A DNA stretch of 64,000 nt from Escherichia coli (lineage in GTDB: Bacteria; Pseudomonadota; Gammaproteobacteria; Enterobacterales; Enterobacteriaceae), in the NCBI RefSeq assembly GCF_011045215.1, contig NZ_CP049201.1; one strand, given 5' to 3'. Position numbers and translations under genes: made by a program. Numbering within the stretch: the stretch's first letter is position 1; the number at the start of each line of letters is the position of its first letter. Shown piece by piece: positions 56,626 to 64,000 of this stretch. Below the pieces are notes generated by a model. It saw nothing but the letters and a program-made list of their open reading frames with translations, made no database searches and had not been told where the DNA came from.

Positions 56626-57840
56626 ATGAAGATCGTAAAGGCTGAAGTTTTTGTTACCTGTCCGGGGCGTAATTTCGTCACATTAAAAATCACCACTAAG
56701 GACGGTATTACGGGCCTTGGGGATGCCACCCTCAATGGACGTGAGCTTTCCGTGGCCTCTTATTTGCAGGATCACCTTTGTCCGCAGCTTATTGGTCGCG
56801 ATGCGCACCGTATCGAAGATATCTGGCAGTTTTTCTATAAAGGTGCTTACTGGCGTCGCGGTCCGGTTACGATGTCGGCCATTTCAGCGGTTGATATGGC
56901 GCTGTGGGATATTAAAGCCAAAGCTGCCAACATGCCGCTTTACCAGTTACTCGGCGGCGCGTCTCGTGAAGGGGTGATGGTTTATTGCCATACCACCGGT
57001 CACAGTATTGATGAAGCTCTGGATGATTATGCCCGTCATCAGGAGCTGGGATTCAAAGCCATCCGCGTGCAGTGCGGCATCCCTGGTATGAAAACCACCT
57101 ACGGCATGTCGAAAGGTAAAGGTCTGGCTTATGAACCCGCAACCAAAGGACAGTGGCCGGAAGAGCAGCTGTGGTCGACGGAGAAATACCTCGATTTCAT
57201 GCCGAAATTGTTTGACGCGGTACGTAACAAGTTTGGTTTTAATGAACATTTGCTGCATGACATGCACCATCGCTTAACGCCTATTGAAGCGGCGCGCTTT
57301 GGTAAAAGCATTGAAGATTATCGCATGTTCTGGATGGAAGACCCGACGCCTGCGGAAAACCAGGAATGCTTCCGTCTCATTCGCCAACATACCGTCACAC
57401 CCATCGCAGTGGGTGAAGTCTTCAACAGCATCTGGGACTGCAAACAACTGATTGAAGAGCAACTCATCGATTATATCCGCACCACGCTGACCCATGCAGG
57501 CGGAATTACCGGTATGCGCCGGATTGCCGATTTTGCTTCGTTGTATCAGGTACGTACTGGCTCACACGGTCCTTCCGATTTGTCACCAGTCTGCATGGCT
57601 GCGGCGCTGCACTTTGATCTGTGGGTCCCCAATTTCGGTGTCCAGGAATACATGGGTTATTCCGAACAAATGCTCGAAGTCTTCCCGCACAACTGGACTT
57701 TCGATAACGGCTATATGCATCCGGGAGACAAACCGGGTCTTGGCATCGAATTAGATGAAAAGCTGGCGGCGAAATATCCCTATGAACCTGCTTATCTACC
57801 AGTCGCACGTCTGGAAGATGGCACGCTGTGGAACTGGTAA
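56626..57840 (+). CDS. rspA: RspA, starvation-sensing protein, enolase-superfamily mannonate dehydratase-like
   Basis: ORF 56593-57840; start taken at [40 protein letters not shown]... giving 404 aa. Confidence 0.95.
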
Positions 57841-57851
57841 GGAGTAAGATA

Positions 57852-58871
57852 ATGAAAAGCATATTAATTGAAAAACCGAATCAACTGGCGATTGTCGAAC
57901 GTGAAATACCCACCCCGTCAGCGGGTGAAGTACGAGTAAAAGTGAAACTTGCCGGAATTTGTGGTTCAGATAGCCATATTTATCGTGGGCATAATCCTTT
58001 TGCGAAATATCCGCGCGTCATTGGACATGAATTCTTTGGCGTCATTGATGCGGTGGGTGAAGGTGTGGAAAGCGCCAGAGTCGGTGATCGTGTTGCTGTC
58101 GATCCGGTGGTCAGCTGTGGTCATTGCTATCCGTGCTCAATAGGTAAGCCGAACGTTTGTACGACACTCGCTGTATTAGGTGTGCACGCTGACGGTGGTT
58201 TCAGTGAATATGCTGTGGTTCCGGCAAAAAATGCGTGGAAAATTCCTGAAGCATTGGCCGATCAATATGCGGTAATGATCGAACCTTTTACCATTGCGGC
58301 TAACGTAACCGGTCATGGTCAACCGACTGAAAATGATACCGTTCTGGTTTATGGTGCCGGTCCAATCGGCCTGACGATCGTTCAGGTATTAAAAGGCGTC
58401 TATAACGTTAAAAATGTGATTGTTGCCGATCGCATTGATGAACGACTGGAAAAAGCGAAAGAGAGCGGGGCTGACTGGGTGATTAATAACAGCCAGACAC
58501 CGCTTGGCGAGATTTTCGCTGAAAAAGGCATAAAGCCGACATTAATTATCGATGCGGCTTGTCATCCTTCTATCCTGAAAGAGGCCGTAACGCTGGCTTC
58601 TCCAGCGGCACGTATTGTATTGATGGGCTTCTCCAGTGAACCGTCTGAAGTGATTCAGCAAGGAATTACCGGAAAAGAACTCTCTATTTTCTCTTCACGC
58701 TTAAATGCAAATAAATTCCCGGTCGTTATCGACTGGTTAAGTAAAGGGTTAATTAAACCAGAAAAATTAATTACCCATACGTTTGATTTCCAGCATGTTG
58801 CTGATGCCATTAGTTTATTTGAACAGGATCAAAAACATTGCTGCAAAGTCTTACTCACTTTTTCTGAATAA
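57852..58871 (+). CDS. rspB: RspB, Zn-dependent alcohol dehydrogenase family
   Basis: ORF 57828-58871; start taken at MKSILIEKPNQLAIVEREIPTPSAGEVRVKVKLAGICGSDSHIY... giving 339 aa. Confidence 0.95.
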   Translation: MKSILIEKPNQLAIVEREIPTPSAGEVRVKVKLAGICGSDSHIYRGHNPFAKYPRVIGHEFFGVIDAVGEGVESARVGDRVAVDPVVSCGHCYPCSIGKPNVCTTLAVLGVHADGGFSEYAVVPAKNAWKIPEALADQYAVMIEPFTIAANVTGHGQPTENDTVLVYGAGPIGLTIVQVLKGVYNVKNVIVADRIDERLEKAKESGADWVINNSQTPLGEIFAEKGIKPTLIIDAACHPSILKEAVTLASPAARIVLMGFSSEPSEVIQQGITGKELSIFSSRLNANKFPVVIDWLSKGLIKPEKLITHTFDFQHVADAISLFEQDQKHCCKVLLTFSE

Positions 58872-58928
58872 TACCAATAACGGCGAGTAAGTAGTACGCA
58901 TCTTACCTCTTTTTTAGAGATAACCATT

Positions 58929-59039
58929 ATGACAATAGAAAAACACGAAAGAAGCACTAAGGATTTGGTGAAAGCAGCGGTATCGGGATGGCTGGGCACT
59001 GCGCTTGAATTTATGGATTTCAAGAGTCATGCGTATTAA
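58929..59039 (+). pseudogene. ydfJ: N-terminal fragment of an MFS transporter gene (ydfJ-like) truncated by prophage integration
   Basis: Hand-translated 36-aa ORF MTIEKHERSTKDLVKAAVSGWLGTALEFMDFKSHAY; the first 31 residues look like a sugar/metabolite MFS N-terminus (GxLxEWxDF-like motif), then the frame terminates 5 codons later, 20 bp before the integrase stop. Confidence 0.5.
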
Positions 59040-59058
59040 CTATTTGATAAATATTAAA

Positions 59059-60354
59059 TTAATTTTTCATTGCTTCGTTATGGGGCATGGTTGGGGCAAA
59101 CTCGCTTAACTGTGTATTTAACAAAGCTACCTGTGCATTATTGTTTTCAGACATCCATTTTCCGTATACCTGAAATACCATTTGCGCATCTGCATGGCCC
59201 ATCTGGTTTGCTATAAATGCCGGGTTAGCACCAGCTGTCAGCGACCAGCAGGCATAAGTATGTCTCGACTGATATGATTTTCGATGGCGGAGTCCGGCAC
59301 GTTTTATCGCTGCGTCCCACATCTGCCTTATTGAGTCAACGGTAAAATGGTCACCATAATTTTTTACTCTCGCTGACACTTCAGGTTGAAAAACAAAGGT
59401 GCATTTTTGTTTTTCTGTTCTGCCATACTCTCTGAGGTGAACATCAATGATATGCTCTTTGCTCAGTCTCGTTAATGTCATCTGACTCCGGAGAGCGTCG
59501 ATTGCTGGCTTAATAAGATGAATGACCCGATTGGTTCCCGCCTGTGTTTTTGGTACCGTGAAACGGTCTTTTGCTAAATTTCTCCTGATCATCATTGTTC
59601 CATTTTTCAGATCTATGTCCTCCCATCCAAGTGCACACAGCTCACCAGGGCGAACGCCAGTATAAACAGAAACACACCATAAATTTTTTGCTTGCTGATT
59701 TCTGCACGCATCGATAAGACGGATAAATTCTTCCCGCGAAAGAGGATCCGGAATGGTTCTTGATTCCTTTAATGGCGAGATCCCCTTAAACGGATTATCT
59801 GCCAGGTAACCGTTATCAACACCAAACTGGAACACGGCGTTAAGATTTGTCATGTAATTATTTACAGTTACAGCCGATCTCCCTGGTTGTGTAACAATAT
59901 AGTTACTTTTGGGGGTCTGGTATCCAGTCAGTAGCTCTTTACGAACCTCCAGTAATTTTTCTTTATTAATCGATGAGGCAAGATTTTTTTCACCGATTAT
60001 GCTCAGGATATTTTTGATGACGGCACGGTATGTGTTGAGTGATGTTTTGGCGACTTCAGTTTCTTTCAGTGCCAGAAATTTTTCAGCCAGTTCTTTTATG
60101 GTTAAATCTTGTCGGGCCTCACCAAATTTTTCCAGATTGCGTGAGGAGGGAAACTGTTTTGCATAGTCGAAAACACCAGTTTTTATTGCGTAACAAACAG
60201 AGGAGCGTAGTTCACCTGCAACGCGCCTGTTTTTTGCTGTGTCAGGAACCCCCAGATTTTCCCTGACTCTTACGCCTTTATAAACAAACCAGATACGTAA
60301 TTTCCCTCCATGGTTTTCCACGCCTGTCGGATATTTCATTTCAACTTCTCTCAT
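59059..60354 (-). CDS. Phage tyrosine integrase (lambda Int family), apparently full length
   Basis: 431-aa ORF (or 426 aa from the second Met); C-terminal catalytic region with HxxR (HRKSYQSRH) and a downstream Tyr; sits at the prophage/chromosome junction. Confidence 0.85.
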   Translation of the reverse strand: MREVEMKYPTGVENHGGKLRIWFVYKGVRVRENLGVPDTAKNRRVAGELRSSVCYAIKTGVFDYAKQFPSSRNLEKFGEARQDLTIKELAEKFLALKETEVAKTSLNTYRAVIKNILSIIGEKNLASSINKEKLLEVRKELLTGYQTPKSNYIVTQPGRSAVTVNNYMTNLNAVFQFGVDNGYLADNPFKGISPLKESRTIPDPLSREEFIRLIDACRNQQAKNLWCVSVYTGVRPGELCALGWEDIDLKNGTMMIRRNLAKDRFTVPKTQAGTNRVIHLIKPAIDALRSQMTLTRLSKEHIIDVHLREYGRTEKQKCTFVFQPEVSARVKNYGDHFTVDSIRQMWDAAIKRAGLRHRKSYQSRHTYACWSLTAGANPAFIANQMGHADAQMVFQVYGKWMSENNNAQVALLNTQLSEFAPTMPHNEAMKN

Positions 60355-60373
60355 TAGTTAGTGTGGCTTTTAG

Positions 60374-60625
60374 TCAAGTAAGATGACGTCTTGGTCTCGC
60401 TGATGCCTGGCGCTCAATCCAGCGATCAATTTCTTCCAGGTTGTAAAAGCATGGACTGTTATCCCATGGCATACCGTCATGAGCGACATGCTTATATTCC
60501 CTTCCTTCCATAAACGATTTTTCCCGGGCCTTTTTTAACGTACCTTTTTTTATTCCTTTCAGCGCAATTAACTGCTCTTCGGATACCCATTTGCCGGGAG
60601 AGACAATCATGATTACTTCGCTCAT
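60374..60625 (-). CDS. Putative excisionase / small DNA-binding protein
   Basis: 83-aa ORF MSEVIMIVSPGKWVSEEQLIALKGIKKGTLKKAREKSF... directly upstream of the integrase, the usual xis position; no confident sequence match from memory. Confidence 0.5.
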   Translation of the reverse strand: MSEVIMIVSPGKWVSEEQLIALKGIKKGTLKKAREKSFMEGREYKHVAHDGMPWDNSPCFYNLEEIDRWIERQASARPRRHLT

Positions 60626-60697
60626 CGATTTCTTTATCTCTTACATCAGACGAGCGCCGGTTGCAGAATACCAGTCACAACCGGCGACAGTTGAACA

Positions 60698-63169
60698 TTA
60701 AGAATCAGCCTGACTCGGGATCAGTTTTTGCCAGATAACTGAAACGTATTTTGCCTGGTAACGGGCGTCATCAAGTGCATTATGGCGCTCACCTTCGAAT
60801 GGAATAGCCGTTCTGGGATCGAAGTCTATGGCTTTCCCCAGCTCAACGATTGTGCGTACATCGCGATCGTTGTAGTAACGCCACGGGCAGGGGATCCCCT
60901 GCCGTTCGTATGAACGGCGCAAAATCGTGTTGTCGAAGTTGGCTCCATTTCCCCAGACCTGAACAAAAAATTCACCGGAGTTTTCGTCGATAAATTCCCG
61001 CAATTGTAACAGTGCATCATCTAACGGGATTTCATCGGTCATAATGGCAGATTGCGCTTCGCGTGATTGCTTAAGCCACCATTTAATGGTGTCCCGATCA
61101 ATGACTCCGCCAGCAGTTTCCAGATCGATAGTCTTACTAAATTCCGGTCCCATATCTCCGGTTTGCGGATCGAAAAATATTGCACCTATTGAGATGATCG
61201 GGGCATCAGGATTTTTTCCCATGGTTTCAAGGTCGATCATTAGATGGTCACACGTCCTGCTGGTGGATGTGATTTCGTGATGACCGTTCACCTTAATTGA
61301 GTGATCTGCCGTCTCGCCAGTTTCATTATCGCTATTGTGATGCTGATTGCCGCCAGTGTTCTCCTTGTGTGGATGTTCAGCGCCTTCCATTTCCTCCGGA
61401 TCATCTTCCTGAACTTCAACCTGATACTCTTCATCGAATGTTTCTTGGTATGTTGCGTCGCCCATCACCGCGCCACAATCAGGGCAGTTGCCGCCGCCGG
61501 TCTGACCGCAGGCGGTGCAGACTTTTTCCACTTCCTGTTGCGCCACTGGTTCAGGCTGTTTCGTTTCTGGCTCGTTTTGTAACGCATTTGGGCTGTTTTG
61601 TTCCGCTTTTTGGTAGTTCCGTTCCGATTCATGCTGGTTCTGGTTCACAGAATCGCGGGTCTGGATCCCCTTAACCCATTTCGGATCATTCGGGTCACTA
61701 ATCCCTTCAACAAATTCACCACGTGATGCAGCAAGCAACTTATCGGCGTCAGGCTGGCTGATATTGGCTGCCTGCATAATTTTGTTTACTTCGTCAGCGG
61801 TAACTTTTATCGGCTCTGGTTGTTCTGAATCTTCAGCGGTATCTACATTTTGCGGTAAGCCCGTGTATGTGCCATTTTTTCGGGCAAAATATTCTTCTTT
61901 TGTGATTTCAGTGGCGCCAGCAGCCAGTGCCTTATCCAGACCAGAAAGTTTGTTTGCGCGACCGTATTTTTCTCCGTCCTTATCTGCGAAGAGGAAATAG
62001 AACGGCCCCTCACGCTCTACAGATGGTTCAGCTTCCGGCGCGGTTTCATTTTTTGGGATATCAGATACCTCAGTTTCCACTGCATCAGTTTGTGTTTCTG
62101 ATGACTGGAGAACATCAACAGTGCCCAGGTCTGTTTCTTCATTCTCAAACACGCCCTTTGTCGTCAGGTATTCGCAGATATATTTGTTCAGTGCTACGGG
62201 ATCTTTGTGAATGTCGATCGGACGCTCACGGACAAGGCCAAAAATAGTTTGGCGGTCGTAGCGAAGGGCATCAGGCTGTTTGCGCATTGATGCCGAGATA
62301 CGCTTCCAGTCTTCGCGGTCGTTGTCGATAACTTCTTTTTTTGCCCAGCGATGGATGCTGCCGTCAATGTTTCCGGCATCCACATCACCAGGCCAGAGAG
62401 CGTAGGCCAGTTCGTCATCCAGTGTTTTCCATGTCTGCTTGTATTCGCGATGAATGGCAGCAATGACCGGGCTGATTTTTCCTGTTGAATTTTCAGTGTA
62501 CTGTTGATTGGCTCTGGCGCGGGCGAGATCAACAACAGACGTGTATTTTCCGGTTTCCTTGCGTTCACCTTCGCGACGTTTTTTCCAGATGCGCATCTCT
62601 GTCTGAATTTCGGGCCATTTAGCACCAGGAATACATTTATGCTTAACCCACCCAATGGCGTGCAACTTAAGCTCCGGATACATGGCGTTAACTTCTGGCA
62701 TTTTCATCAACGCTTCAACGATATGTCCGTCGAATGTTGCCATGTCTTCCTGCAACAATTCCTGTGTGCTAATAACCATATCAACGGTGATGTTTTCACA
62801 TGTGTCGAACTTAACCATGACAGCGTTCTGTACTTCAGGGGCCAGCTTGTCAAAAGTGACGTTCATCGGATCGGATTCAGTCTCAACCGGGACAAAAGAA
62901 GCAGACTCCTCATCCCAGCGGTTTTCCTGCATATATTCAGCATCCCATGAATCGAGGGCAGGGCGGGGTATGCCAGGTTTATCCTCGCAGATAATAAATT
63001 TATAAGCGCAGTCCTGAGCAGCCGGATAATGTTCCAGGAACTGCCAGTGAAATTTTGCTCGAGCACGGCGTTCGTCGCCAGCTTCAATGGCTGTGGCTAC
63101 AGCCACCGCGCCTTCTCCCCTTGTTGCCAGTTCGTCAGGAATAGCGGCGCAAATAAAGACTTTACTCAT
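60698..63169 (-). CDS. YdfE-like large prophage nuclease: RecE-like segment, Cys4 zinc ribbon, acidic linker and C-terminal DnaQ-like DEDDh 3'-5' exonuclease domain
   Basis: 823-aa ORF; the segment DADKLLAASRGEFVEGISDPNDPKWVKGIQTRD resembles one I associate with RecE; CTACGQTGGGNCPDCG zinc ribbon; C-terminus has DEDDh-type motifs (MIDLETMG ... VWGNGANFDNTIL ... HNALDDARY). Confidence 0.7.
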   Translation of the reverse strand: MSKVFICAAIPDELATRGEGAVAVATAIEAGDERRARAKFHWQFLEHYPAAQDCAYKFIICEDKPGIPRPALDSWDAEYMQENRWDEESASFVPVETESDPMNVTFDKLAPEVQNAVMVKFDTCENITVDMVISTQELLQEDMATFDGHIVEALMKMPEVNAMYPELKLHAIGWVKHKCIPGAKWPEIQTEMRIWKKRREGERKETGKYTSVVDLARARANQQYTENSTGKISPVIAAIHREYKQTWKTLDDELAYALWPGDVDAGNIDGSIHRWAKKEVIDNDREDWKRISASMRKQPDALRYDRQTIFGLVRERPIDIHKDPVALNKYICEYLTTKGVFENEETDLGTVDVLQSSETQTDAVETEVSDIPKNETAPEAEPSVEREGPFYFLFADKDGEKYGRANKLSGLDKALAAGATEITKEEYFARKNGTYTGLPQNVDTAEDSEQPEPIKVTADEVNKIMQAANISQPDADKLLAASRGEFVEGISDPNDPKWVKGIQTRDSVNQNQHESERNYQKAEQNSPNALQNEPETKQPEPVAQQEVEKVCTACGQTGGGNCPDCGAVMGDATYQETFDEEYQVEVQEDDPEEMEGAEHPHKENTGGNQHHNSDNETGETADHSIKVNGHHEITSTSRTCDHLMIDLETMGKNPDAPIISIGAIFFDPQTGDMGPEFSKTIDLETAGGVIDRDTIKWWLKQSREAQSAIMTDEIPLDDALLQLREFIDENSGEFFVQVWGNGANFDNTILRRSYERQGIPCPWRYYNDRDVRTIVELGKAIDFDPRTAIPFEGERHNALDDARYQAKYVSVIWQKLIPSQADS

Positions 63170-63262
63170 TTTGTTTGAACCTCATGACAGATTTAAGGAT
63201 GAACAAATCCCTGCCATTGCTGGCATATAAGAATGAAACCGGATATTTATTACGGAACTGTT

Positions 63263-63454
63263 TTAAAGACCTGCCGGGATTTCGATATTATCCTGGTGAA
63301 TAACTTTATCGACCGGGTAACAGTTACCGGGAATTTTCTGTTCGGTTGCTGCAGTCATACACTCCTGCATTGTCCTGTGAACACTGACTGCAATATCAAC
63401 TGGCTCTCCGGAAACAAGAAAAACTGTCAGAACAAGCGCAAATGCTGAATTCAT
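63263..63454 (-). CDS. ydfD: YdfD, small prophage lysis-associated protein
   Basis: ORF 63263-63508; start taken at MNSAFALVLTVFLVSGEPVDIAVSVHRTMQECMTAATEQKIPGNCYPVDKVIHQDNIEIPAGL (63 aa); 4-nt overlap with the dicB stop. Confidence 0.7.
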   Translation of the reverse strand: MNSAFALVLTVFLVSGEPVDIAVSVHRTMQECMTAATEQKIPGNCYPVDKVIHQDNIEIPAGL

Positions 63455-63639
63455 TGTGCACATCCTTTTGGCATCAGACGTAAACGAGCCAGCATTGAAA
63501 CAATGCATATTTTATTTAATAGCTCCCGTTCTTGTTTTCTCTTGTTAATGGCATCTTCAGTAAATACAGGGTTACTGATAGTGACACCAATTTCAAAACA
63601 ACCTTCAGACGTATTAACGTTTGGTAATAACGTTTTCAT
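63451..63639 (-). CDS. dicB: DicB, prophage-encoded cell-division inhibitor (acts with MinC)
   Basis: ORF 63451-63744; start taken at MKTLLPNVNTSEGCFEIGVTISNPVFTEDAINKRKQERELLNKICIVSMLARLRLMPKGCAQ (62 aa), matching DicB as I recall it. Confidence 0.85.
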   Translation of the reverse strand: MKTLLPNVNTSEGCFEIGVTISNPVFTEDAINKRKQERELLNKICIVSMLARLRLMPKGCAQ

Positions 63640-63808
63640 TATCGCGTCCTCAACAATGAATTTTGTGATGCAGTGCCTGGTGCCTCCAGGTGACGTTAAC
63701 CAGTTAACAATTAACGCCGGATACAGAGAATCCACCCATAACACTGTTTTTGGTTTTAACTGTTCCGCGTGCGCTTAGCCGCATTCACCGCATCACAAAA
63801 TTCACTTT

Positions 63809-63866
63809 AAAAACGGCGGCAGAGCAGTCACGGAGTAAAACTGATACCGCCAAACGTCACCAGAAA
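63809..63866 (-). ncRNA. dicF: DicF small regulatory RNA (represses ftsZ and other targets) with its intrinsic terminator
   Basis: Minus strand reads TTTCTGGTGACGTTTGGCGGTATCAGTTTTACTCCGTGACTGCTCTGCCGCCGTTTTT, which matches the DicF sequence I recall, including the GC stem and U-run; lies directly upstream of dicB. Confidence 0.85.
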
Positions 63867-63964
63867 ATTGATAACAGAGGGCGTTGCAGCGGGGTTGTCA
63901 CTTAAGCGTATGGTCAACCTGACAACTCGGTGTCCTCAACGGGGAAGGAATAACCCCGCCATAC

Positions 63965-64000
63965 TTACCGCCGCGCCATTTCGCGGATTGCCACAACCGG
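63965..64000 (-). CDS. 3' end of a prophage ORF upstream of dicF (ydfC-like?), partial at window edge
   Basis: Minus-strand frame reads ...PVVAIREMARR then stop at 63965-63967; only 11 codons are in the window, so identity is unsupported. Confidence 0.25.
   Translation of the reverse strand, partial: PVVAIREMARR

What the first reader, a model, noticed from the sequence alone, without database searches (positions are those of the whole stretch)
59059..60625. Apparently intact integrase and excisionase-like pair at the Qin-like prophage end, with no IS element
As I recall, the K-12 Qin integrase is a pseudogene associated with an IS2 insertion. Here the integrase ORF is full length (431 aa) with an upstream 83-aa xis-like gene and no IS sequence I can recognise. 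This prophage may therefore still be excision-competent, which matters because it carries the dicB/dicF division-inhibitor cassette.
Basis: partly seen in the sequence, partly recalled or inferred. Interest (0 to 1): 0.45.

Follow-up and report, generated by a model that had tools for sequence, protein, structure and literature searches.

The report
Intact Qin-type prophage integrase and excisionase
This is the undamaged integration and excision module (attL, integrase, excisionase) of a common lambda-like prophage inserted in the E. coli ydfJ gene; it is the ancestral form of what K-12 lost to an IS2 deletion, and it is widespread and already described.

Summary
Window 59059-60354(-) is an uninterrupted integrase ORF (431 aa at most; 426 aa from the likelier start at 60339). 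Window 60374-60625(-) is an 83-aa excisionase (Pfam DUF1233). No IS element lies between the att core (59013-59021) and dicF (63814-63865). K-12 has a 706-bp IS2E remnant in place of window 60219-62402, which removed the integrase N-terminus, all of xis and most of the exonuclease gene.

The module is ordinary. Of 5426 complete E. coli genomes, 2706 carry this attL junction and 2219 carry the whole int-to-dicB block. The int-xis DNA is 100% identical to that of strains with complete 44-kb prophages. Isolated phages (mEp460_ev081, PhiR42_1, HannyBb, Tritos) encode an integrase 99.1-99.5% identical. The attP of the two checked (mEp460_ev081, PhiR42_1) equals K-12 attR plus the window's attL.

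The catalytic residues are R230, K264, Y356, R359, H382 and Y392. Tyr replaces the first His, as it does in the active integrases of Rac and the Stx1 phage VT1-Sakai.

Excision competence is plausible but unproven, because attR and the immunity region lie beyond the window. By counts, at least 91% of attL-bearing genomes also keep attR. This is already known, so interest is low.

The parts
58929..59039 (+). 5' fragment of the host gene ydfJ (the K-12 ynfP equivalent). Its codons up to Phe31 are host sequence; the ORF then runs into phage DNA and stops at 59037-59039.
   Evidence: It translates to MTIEKHERSTKDLVKAAVSGWLGTALEFMDF.... K-12 annotates the same piece as ynfP. Intact ydfJ continues ...EFMDFQLYSLG in genomes with an empty site.
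59013..59021 (.). attL core ATGGATTTC. The stretch identical between attP and attB is TTATGGATTTC (59011-59021). The prophage begins at 59022.
   Evidence: The same 9 bases sit at both ends of Qin in K-12, in the attP of mEp460_ev081 and PhiR42_1, and in empty ydfJ sites.
59022..59150 (.). P' arm of attL, overlapping the integrase 3' end. It contains a match to the IHF consensus (TATCAAATAGTTA on the - strand, 59037-59049) and a degenerate copy of the attP core region (59129-59149).
   Evidence: It is identical to the P' side of attL in L007-L014 and L016, and differs at 1-3 bases from the phage attP sequences. The IHF match is a consensus match read from the sequence only. The 21-nt repeat matches 18/21 and no such match arose in 200 shuffles.
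59059..60339 (-). Integrase gene, 426 aa (the maximal ORF reaches 60354, 431 aa). It is a tyrosine recombinase with an N-terminal arm-binding domain.
   Evidence: The nucleotide sequence is 100% identical to the gene in six other loci, including MLI107 with a complete prophage.
60374..60625 (-). Excisionase (xis), 83 aa, DUF1233 family. An alternative start at Met6 would give 78 aa.
   Evidence: Pfam 1.6e-31 and PHROG 'excisionase' 1.4e-35. It is 26% identical to Rac XisR, E 2e-5. The DNA is identical to xis of phage PhiR42_1 and to RefSeq WP_000005552.1.
60656..60685 (-). Stable RNA hairpin (GCCGGUUG...CAACCGGC) between the exonuclease stop codon and the xis start codon. It has no U tract.
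   Evidence: The 86-nt stretch containing it folds at -25.9 kcal/mol, z = -2.66 against shuffles. Its function is unknown.
60698..63169 (-). 823-aa exonuclease, the full-length form of the K-12 ydfE pseudogene, with a C-terminal Rv2179c-like 3'-5' exonuclease domain.
   Evidence: Pfam 1.5e-67 and PHROG 'exonuclease', full length. K-12 keeps only the first 767 nt.
63212..63225 (-). Weak terminator-like hairpin between ydfD and the exonuclease gene.
   Evidence: Pattern scan, which found no more sites than chance predicts. In K-12, transcripts from dicBp were seen up to ydfD but not beyond (PMC10448788).
63263..63454 (-). ydfD (63 aa).
   Evidence: PHROG match over the full length. RefSeq annotates the homologue as ydfD.
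63451..63639 (-). dicB, the cell-division inhibitor (62 aa).
   Evidence: The DNA is 100% identical to dicB in L001, L007, L010-L016.
63814..63865 (-). DicF small RNA.
   Evidence: Rfam RF00039, 72.5 bits (gathering score 48), E 6e-15.

Best explanation
The region is the int-proximal end (attL) of a lambda-like prophage of the Qin/mEp460 type, inserted by site-specific recombination into codons 28-31 of the host gene ydfJ.

What the parts do:
- The integrase is a lambda-Int-type tyrosine recombinase with an arm-binding N-terminal domain. It recombines the core ATGGATTTC.
- The DUF1233 excisionase is inferred, by analogy with Rac XisR and lambda Xis, to bind the P arm at attR and set the direction towards excision.
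- Host IHF probably bends the P' arm.

Expression (inferred). xis and int are the last genes of the leftward early operon: dicBp, ydfABC, dicF, dicB, ydfD, exonuclease, xis, int. They would be made only when the DicA-type repressor is relieved and transcription reads past the stops after ydfD. Excision would then coincide with DicB/DicF production.

Shown here:
- Intact genes and an intact attL.
- Identity or near-identity to the same module in complete prophages and isolated phages.
- K-12 is a derived IS2 deletion of this state.

Inferred: catalytic activity, the Xis role, the expression route, and the presence of attR. My estimate that this particular prophage can excise is about 0.65.
For: - Domains and full-length ORFs.
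- The six active-site positions R230, K264, Y356, R359, H382 and Y392 are invariant across the window integrase, phage mEp460_ev081, VT1-Sakai (prophage Sp15), Stx2_112808 and Rac IntR. Rac and Sp15 excise experimentally (PMC3105296; PMC4632033; PMC2669165).
- The integrase is 99.1-99.5% identical to that of four deposited phage genomes. Its four differences from mEp460_ev081 and two from PhiR42_1 are not at catalytic positions.
- xis DNA is identical to that of phage PhiR42_1.
- The phage attP equals the K-12 attR P arm plus the core plus the window's P' arm.
- MLI107 has the identical int-xis in a 44.4-kb prophage with a full set of head, tail and lysis genes, bounded by attL and attR.
- There is a step in divergence exactly at the core. 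The 1185 bp on the host side differ at 17-33 positions from the other loci. The 1676 bp of int-xis differ at 0 positions in six of them. This points to recent horizontal arrival rather than ancient vertical inheritance.
- mEp460_ev081 is described in the literature as a functional temperate phage carrying dicB, dicF, dicAC and rem (PMC10448788).
Against: - attR, the repressor/antirepressor region and the late genes are outside the window. The source genome was not found.
- The prophage DNA most similar to the window (99.8%, strains B4103-1 and MB06101) belongs to 15.5-kb remnants that lack morphogenesis genes. Those remnants still keep both att cores.
- In K-12, dicBp transcripts were not detected beyond ydfD, so int-xis expression may need an antitermination function that I did not identify.
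- No activity was measured for this integrase or excisionase. The Xis role rests on family membership and 26% identity to XisR.
- The window allele has T142 where the phages, K-12 and H1 have I142. T142 also occurs in MLI107's complete prophage.
Confidence: 0.85

Rival explanations
1. The prophage is grounded despite intact-looking genes. Int and Xis are recent relics that are never expressed, or that lack a usable partner site, so the element is fixed in the chromosome as K-12 Qin is.
For: - The closest prophage DNA (99.8%) is in 15.5-kb remnants with pseudogenes and no structural genes.
- K-12 transcripts from dicBp stop after ydfD.
- Up to 250 of 2706 attL-bearing genomes could lack the attR junction.
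- A published survey attributed the grounding of Qin to integrase mutations (PMC6379469).
Against: - Both genes are full length and identical to those of complete prophages.
- Even the 15.5-kb remnants keep both att cores. Defective prophages such as Rac still excise.
- Zero mismatches in int-xis beside a host flank that is 1.4-2.8% diverged argues for recent mobility.
Confidence: 0.3
2. The element is not a Qin relative as a whole. It is an unrelated lambdoid phage that shares only the mosaic integration and early-left module.
For: - Lambdoid phages are mosaics.
- The immunity and replication regions differ among loci that carry the identical integrase.
- The exonuclease gene is only 91.7% identical to that of mEp460_ev081, while int is 99.1% identical.
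Against: - Everything visible in the window (attL, int, exonuclease, ydfD, dicB, dicF) is collinear with K-12 Qin at 99.0-99.6% identity wherever K-12 retains it.
- In mEp460_ev081 and MLI107 the far end (ynfT-ydfK-pinQ-tfaQ) also matches K-12 Qin.
- This rival is about naming and does not change the mechanism.
Confidence: 0.15
3. The integrase-excisionase pair has been co-opted as a host switch. Reversible excision would restore ydfJ, which encodes an MFS transporter, under particular conditions ('active lysogeny').
For: - Insertion removes the promoter and the first 28-31 codons of ydfJ (PMC6379469).
- The site is occupied in about 60% of genomes.
Against: - Nothing found here is specific to such a role.
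- Isolated infectious phages carry the same module, which is explanation enough.
- No regulatory link to ydfJ was found.
Confidence: 0.03

Closest known systems
Cryptic prophage Qin of E. coli K-12 (intQ pseudogene, IS2E, ydfE')
   Same: - Same insertion point in ydfJ and same core ATGGATTTC.
- Same gene order: dicF, dicB, ydfD, ydfE, int.
- 99.0-99.6% nucleotide identity wherever K-12 retains the sequence.
   Different: - K-12 has a 706-bp IS2E remnant in place of 2184 bp (window 60219-62402).
- K-12 therefore lacks integrase codons 1-40, all of xis and the 3' two-thirds of the exonuclease gene.
- K-12 Qin does not excise (PMC3105296). The window has the undeleted state.
Temperate phages mEp460_ev081 (LR597641), PhiR42_1 (PV340562), HannyBb (PP925841), Tritos (OV696610)
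   Same: All four encode an integrase 99.1-99.5% identical to the window's. For the two whose sequence was fetched, mEp460_ev081 and PhiR42_1:
- xis DNA is 99.6% and 100% identical.
- The exonuclease-xis-int order is the same.
- attP contains the same core and P' arm.
mEp460_ev081 also has dicB-ydfD upstream, and the literature calls it functional.
   Different: - Those are free phage genomes with attP; here the module is integrated as attL.
- There are 1-3 base differences in the P' arm next to the core.
- The integrase differs at 2 residues (PhiR42_1) or 4 (mEp460_ev081), including I142 where the window has T142. HannyBb and Tritos were not examined beyond the identity figure.
Rac prophage IntR / XisR (E. 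coli K-12)
   Same: - Same integrase architecture and 43% identity over the full length.
- Same active-site set, including Tyr in place of the first His.
- Small excisionase gene immediately upstream of int.
- Experimentally excision-proficient, with XisR binding attR.
   Different: - Different attachment site (ttcA).
- XisR is only 26% identical to the window's Xis.
- xisR is controlled by RpoS, which was not examined here.
Phage lambda Int / Xis
   Same: - Heterobivalent tyrosine integrase plus a small directionality factor.
- int lies next to att and its 3' end overlaps the P' arm.
- xis-int sit at the end of the leftward early operon (for the lambda layout).
   Different: - 23% identity.
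- A different arm-binding domain family (PF12167).
- Tyr356 where lambda has His308.
- An unrelated core sequence and a different Xis family.

Membership tests
Tyrosine recombinase / phage integrase (lambda Int type) | C-terminal catalytic domain recognised by the family profile | tested here: met
   PF00589 scores 66.2 bits against a cut-off of 27.1. phrog_1 'integrase' E 3e-76. It aligns to the Tn1549 Int structure 6EMY, E 4e-9.
Tyrosine recombinase / phage integrase (lambda Int type) | Catalytic Arg-I, Lys, Arg-II, His-II and the Tyr nucleophile | tested here: met
   R230, K264, R359, H382 and Y392 (426-aa numbering) are invariant in alignment A2 with four other integrases, two of which (Rac IntR, VT1-Sakai Int) belong to prophages shown to excise. 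R230 and H382 also align to lambda R212 and H333.
Tyrosine recombinase / phage integrase (lambda Int type) | First His of the HxxR motif (lambda His308) | tested here: not met
   The residue is Tyr356 (SYQSRHT). In the Tn1549 Int alignment, H-A-M-R pairs with Y-Q-S-R. The same Tyr is in IntR, VT1-Sakai Int and mEp460_ev081 Int. It is a trait of this subfamily and compatible with activity, not a lesion.
Tyrosine recombinase / phage integrase (lambda Int type) | N-terminal arm-type DNA-binding domain | tested here: met
   PF12167 Arm-DNA-bind_2 scores 82.9 bits against a cut-off of 22, residues 9-72 of the 431-aa ORF. This is the part K-12 intQ has lost.
Tyrosine recombinase / phage integrase (lambda Int type) | Recombination activity on its att sites | not testable with these tools
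   Only indirect support: near-identical integrases in isolated phages and the step in divergence at the core.
Excisionase / recombination directionality factor (DUF1233) | Match to the family profile over its full length, with the gene next to int | tested here: met
   PF06806 scores 108.1 bits against a cut-off of 22, positions 1-69 of 70. phrog_539 'excisionase'. The gene ends 19-34 nt upstream of the integrase start.
Excisionase / recombination directionality factor (DUF1233) | Binds the P arm and stimulates excision | not testable with these tools
   Shown for the distant relative XisR (26% identity; PMC4632033). Not shown for this protein.
Qin/mEp460-type prophage at ydfJ | attL = ydfJ 5' part + ATGGATTTC + phage P' arm | tested here: met
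   Window 58929-59058 matches K-12 and 10 other loci. The P' arm matches the phage attP. The same junction is in 2706 of 5426 genomes.
Qin/mEp460-type prophage at ydfJ | attR = phage P arm + ATGGATTTC + ydfJ 3' part in the same genome | not testable with these tools
   It lies beyond position 64000 and the source genome was not found. Counts bound its presence at 91% or more of attL-bearing genomes.
Qin/mEp460-type prophage at ydfJ | dicF-dicB-ydfD-exonuclease upstream of xis-int | tested here: met
   The block is collinear with mEp460_ev081, PhiR42_1 and MLI107.

The most novel reading that the evidence does not exclude
The host is an E. coli lineage unlike any of 5426 complete RefSeq genomes (best 98.4-99.3% identity in the flanking chromosome). 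Yet it carries an int-xis block with zero differences from widespread strains. The most novel reading is that a fully active mEp460-type phage carrying dicBF entered this lineage very recently. In that reading, the degenerate second copy of the attP core inside the integrase 3' end (59129-59149) is a working secondary Int-binding or recombination site, not a leftover.
Probability: 0.1. Interest if true: 0.3.

Novelty: already known. Interest (0 to 1): 0.1.

Why it matters
It matters little beyond correct annotation. It shows that K-12's dead intQ is the exception: the usual state of the ydfJ prophage in E. coli has a complete integration and excision module.

For this strain, the dicB/dicF cassette may sit on an element that can still leave the chromosome, or even form phage. 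Loss or transfer of the division inhibitors, and restoration of ydfJ, are therefore possible. Because xis-int lie at the end of the same leftward operon as dicF-dicB, any condition that fully derepresses that operon would couple division arrest with excision. That coupling is expected for a lambdoid phage and has been discussed for mEp460_ev081.

Tried and rejected
1. Finding the source genome in order to read attR.
- A 25-kb flank query gave at best 99.3% identity. Window 1-25000 gave at best 98.4%.
- The exact exonuclease protein is not on record.
- The exact integrase is in 151 blocks of the collection, but none of the eight loci read (L007-L014) is the source: all differ by about 1-2% in the flank.
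- A scan of species-representative genomes for any att junction found only three hits, none of them the source.

2. My first reading that the nearest relatives (B4103-1, MB06101) lack attR was wrong. The annotation shows ydfJ missing and ydfI truncated. The sequence, however, keeps the P arm, the core and 41 bp of ydfJ.

3. MAFFT aligned lambda His308 with the window's His360. I rejected this in favour of the RHT register given by the Tn1549 Int alignment and the subfamily alignment.

4. dN/dS on int and xis is uninformative: 0-7 synonymous differences are too few.

5. I looked for a copy of the att core inside the integrase 3' end of VT1-Sakai, Stx2_112808 and Rac, to see whether the 59129-59149 repeat is a family feature. 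None was found, but those loci are attL-type or truncated, so the test is weak.

6. The promoter and terminator scans gave no more sites than chance predicts.

7. The paper on O157 Sakai prophages (PMC2669165) does not mention ydfJ, so it could not be used for direct excision data at this site.

Full report
**1. The observation**

- Integrase domains: an arm-DNA-binding domain (PF12167, 82.9 bits) followed by the Phage_integrase catalytic domain (PF00589, 66.2 bits).
- The small protein is a full-length DUF1233 'putative excisionase' (108.1 bits).
- PHROGs agrees: integrase 3e-76, excisionase 1e-35.
- RefSeq and most phage records start the integrase at the second ATG (60339, 426 aa). That N-terminus (MKYPTGVE...) is where the homologues begin.

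Downstream on the same strand lie:
- an 823-aa exonuclease (60698-63169);
- ydfD (63263-63454);
- dicB (63451-63639);
- DicF RNA (63814-63865, Rfam 72.5 bits).

**2. Comparison with K-12**

In MG1655, intQ is annotated as a pseudogene abutting IS2E/insD7 and the ydfE pseudogene.
- Direct comparison shows the window aligns to K-12 up to 60218 and again from 62403.
- K-12 therefore lacks 2184 bp (60219-62402) and has the 706-bp IS2E remnant instead.
- The loss covers integrase codons 1-40 (most of the arm-binding domain), all of xis, and all but the first 767 nt of the exonuclease gene.
The window holds the undeleted, ancestral arrangement.
- No IS element is present: 59006-64000 is collinear with phage PhiR42_1 at 99.4%.

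**3. The attachment site**

To the left of the integrase the window carries rspA, rspB and the first 31 codons of ydfJ.
- The junction reads ...CTTGAATTT-ATGGATTTC-AAGAGTCATGCG... with the core at 59013-59021.
- The far end of K-12 Qin reads ...CACCTGTGAATT-ATGGATTTC-CAGTTATATTCG....
- The free phages mEp460_ev081 and PhiR42_1 have ...CACCTGTGAATT-ATGGATTTC-AAGAGTCAT....
- Empty ydfJ sites read ...CTTGAATTT-ATGGATTTC-CAGTTATATTCG....

This is the full attP x attB = attL + attR relationship, and the window's attL is intact. Its P' arm is identical to that of ten other loci and differs by 1-3 bases from the phage copies. On the minus strand it contains TATCAAATAGTTA (59037-59049), which fits the IHF consensus WATCAANNNNTTR. 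That is a sequence match only and was not tested.

**4. Is the integrase sound?**

- It is 43% identical over its full length to Rac IntR.
- It is 61-62% identical to the integrases of VT1-Sakai and other Stx phages.
- It is 99.1-99.5% identical to four deposited coliphage genomes.

In alignment A2, R230, K264, Y356, R359, H382 and Y392 are invariant. The same Tyr is present in:
- IntR, whose prophage excises in K-12 (PMC3105296; PMC4632033);
- VT1-Sakai/Sp15, which excises and transfers (PMC2669165);
- the live phage mEp460_ev081.

It is therefore a subfamily trait and not damage.

The window protein differs from the phage proteins only at G22D/T142I (PhiR42_1) or S46A/T142I/H301Y/Q311H (mEp460_ev081). 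Its exact sequence is in 151 blocks of the protein collection. In the eight loci read, it always sits beside rspB. xis DNA is identical to that of PhiR42_1.

**5. How common is it?**

Among 5426 complete E. coli genomes:

| Feature | Genomes |
|---|---|
| Empty ydfJ site | 2009 |
| attR junction | 3167 |
| attL junction | 2706 |
| Whole int-to-dicB block (at least 80% of the 5.3-kb query) | 2219 |

- Empty-site genomes cannot have attL, and only 250 genomes have neither an empty site nor attR.
- So at least 2456 of 2706 (91%) attL-bearing genomes also have attR.
- IS-disrupted versions like K-12 occur in other strains, with IS3, IS66, IS1 and IS2, but they are the minority.
- ydfJ is a recognised prophage site in STEC (PMC8767318).
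- Qin was reported at this locus in 48% of 638 strains (PMC6379469).

**6. What the rest of the prophage might be**

The window stops at dicF. Two outcomes are seen with essentially the same left end.
- MLI107 has identical int-xis DNA. It carries a 44.4-kb prophage with replication, lysis, terminase, portal, capsid and tail genes, ending in pinQ-ydfK-ynfT and attR.
- B4103-1 and MB06101 have the most similar prophage DNA (99.8%). They carry a 15.5-kb remnant full of pseudogenes. That remnant still keeps the attR core and P arm; a host-side deletion starts 41 bp further on.

I could not find the source genome.

**7. Evidence for recent mobility**

Divergence changes abruptly at the core.
- The 1185 bp of rspB-ynfP next to the core differ at 17-33 positions (1.4-2.8%) from the other loci.
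- The adjoining 1676 bp of int-xis show 0 differences in six of them.

Host flank and prophage end therefore have different histories. This fits recent integration, or replacement by recombination with a circulating phage. It does not fit an old, vertically inherited fossil.

**8. Expression (inferred)**

xis-int lie at the end of the leftward operon that starts at dicBp.
- In K-12 that promoter is repressed by DicA. It is relieved by the antirepressor Rem, by heat or by urea, independently of RecA.
- Transcripts were seen up to ydfD but not beyond (PMC10448788).
- A weak terminator-like hairpin follows ydfD (63212-63225).
- A stable hairpin without a U tract precedes xis (60656-60685; the 86-nt stretch around it folds at -25.9 kcal/mol).
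- Int and Xis synthesis probably needs read-through, as in lambda, where N-modified transcription from pL reaches xis-int. I did not identify the antitermination factor.

**9. Verdict**

Excision competence of this particular prophage cannot be decided from the window; my estimate is about 0.65. The feature is common, is annotated routinely in RefSeq, and has a published functional phage counterpart, so it is already known.

Noticed in passing
window 1-59012: The chromosomal backbone is unusually distant from every one of 5426 complete RefSeq E. coli genomes. The best identity is 98.4% for 1-25000 and 99.3% for 34001-59000, although gene order is collinear. The source is an uncommon lineage, or a Shigella-type genome not in that collection.
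   Followed up: partly
window 57828-60697 (around the att core at 59013-59021): There is a sharp step in divergence at the core. The host side differs at 17-33 of 1185 positions from other loci. The int-xis side differs at 0 of 1676 positions in six of them.
   Followed up: yes
window 59129-59149: ACCTGTGCATTATTGTTTTCA, inside the integrase 3' end, matches 18/21 of the P-arm-plus-core sequence of attP/attR (ACCTGTGAATTATGGATTTCA), about 127 bp away. No such match arose in 200 shuffles. Its function is unknown.
   Followed up: partly
window 60656-60685 (- strand): A stable GC-rich hairpin with no U tract lies in the 72-nt gap between the exonuclease stop codon and the xis start codon. It could be a processing or attenuation signal.
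   Followed up: no
L019 (Buttiauxella gaviniae, NZ_LXEP01000003.1) about 6283; L017 (Citrobacter koseri); L018 (Escherichia sp. MOD1-EC7003): The ydfJ core TGAATTTATGGATTTCCAGTTATAT is conserved as an empty site in C. koseri and in a cryptic Escherichia species. In Buttiauxella the left flank is not ydfJ coding sequence, so a different element seems to occupy the same core.
   Followed up: no
L001 35829-35880; L015 16652-16700: In strains B4103-1 and MB06101 a deletion removes ydfJ from 41 bp past the attR core, as well as the 5' part of ydfI. The att core itself is kept.
   Followed up: partly
hits H3, H22-H27 (equivalent to window 59059-63169): Independent IS insertions (IS3 family, IS66/ISEc8/ISCro1, IS1A, IS2) interrupt the int-xis-exonuclease stretch in various strains. 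The K-12 IS2 event is one of several hits in this region.
   Followed up: no
window 60698-63169: The exact 823-aa exonuclease sequence is not on record in the 15-billion-protein collection. It differs from relatives at 7-20 residues, with a higher nonsynonymous share than int. It carries a CxxC...CxxC motif (CTACGQTGGGNCPDCG) between the N-terminal and the Rv2179c-like domains.
   Followed up: no
window 59914-59916 (integrase codon 142): The window and the loci with an identical integrase (including MLI107) have Thr142. K-12, B4103-1, mEp460_ev081 and PhiR42_1 have Ile.
   Followed up: no
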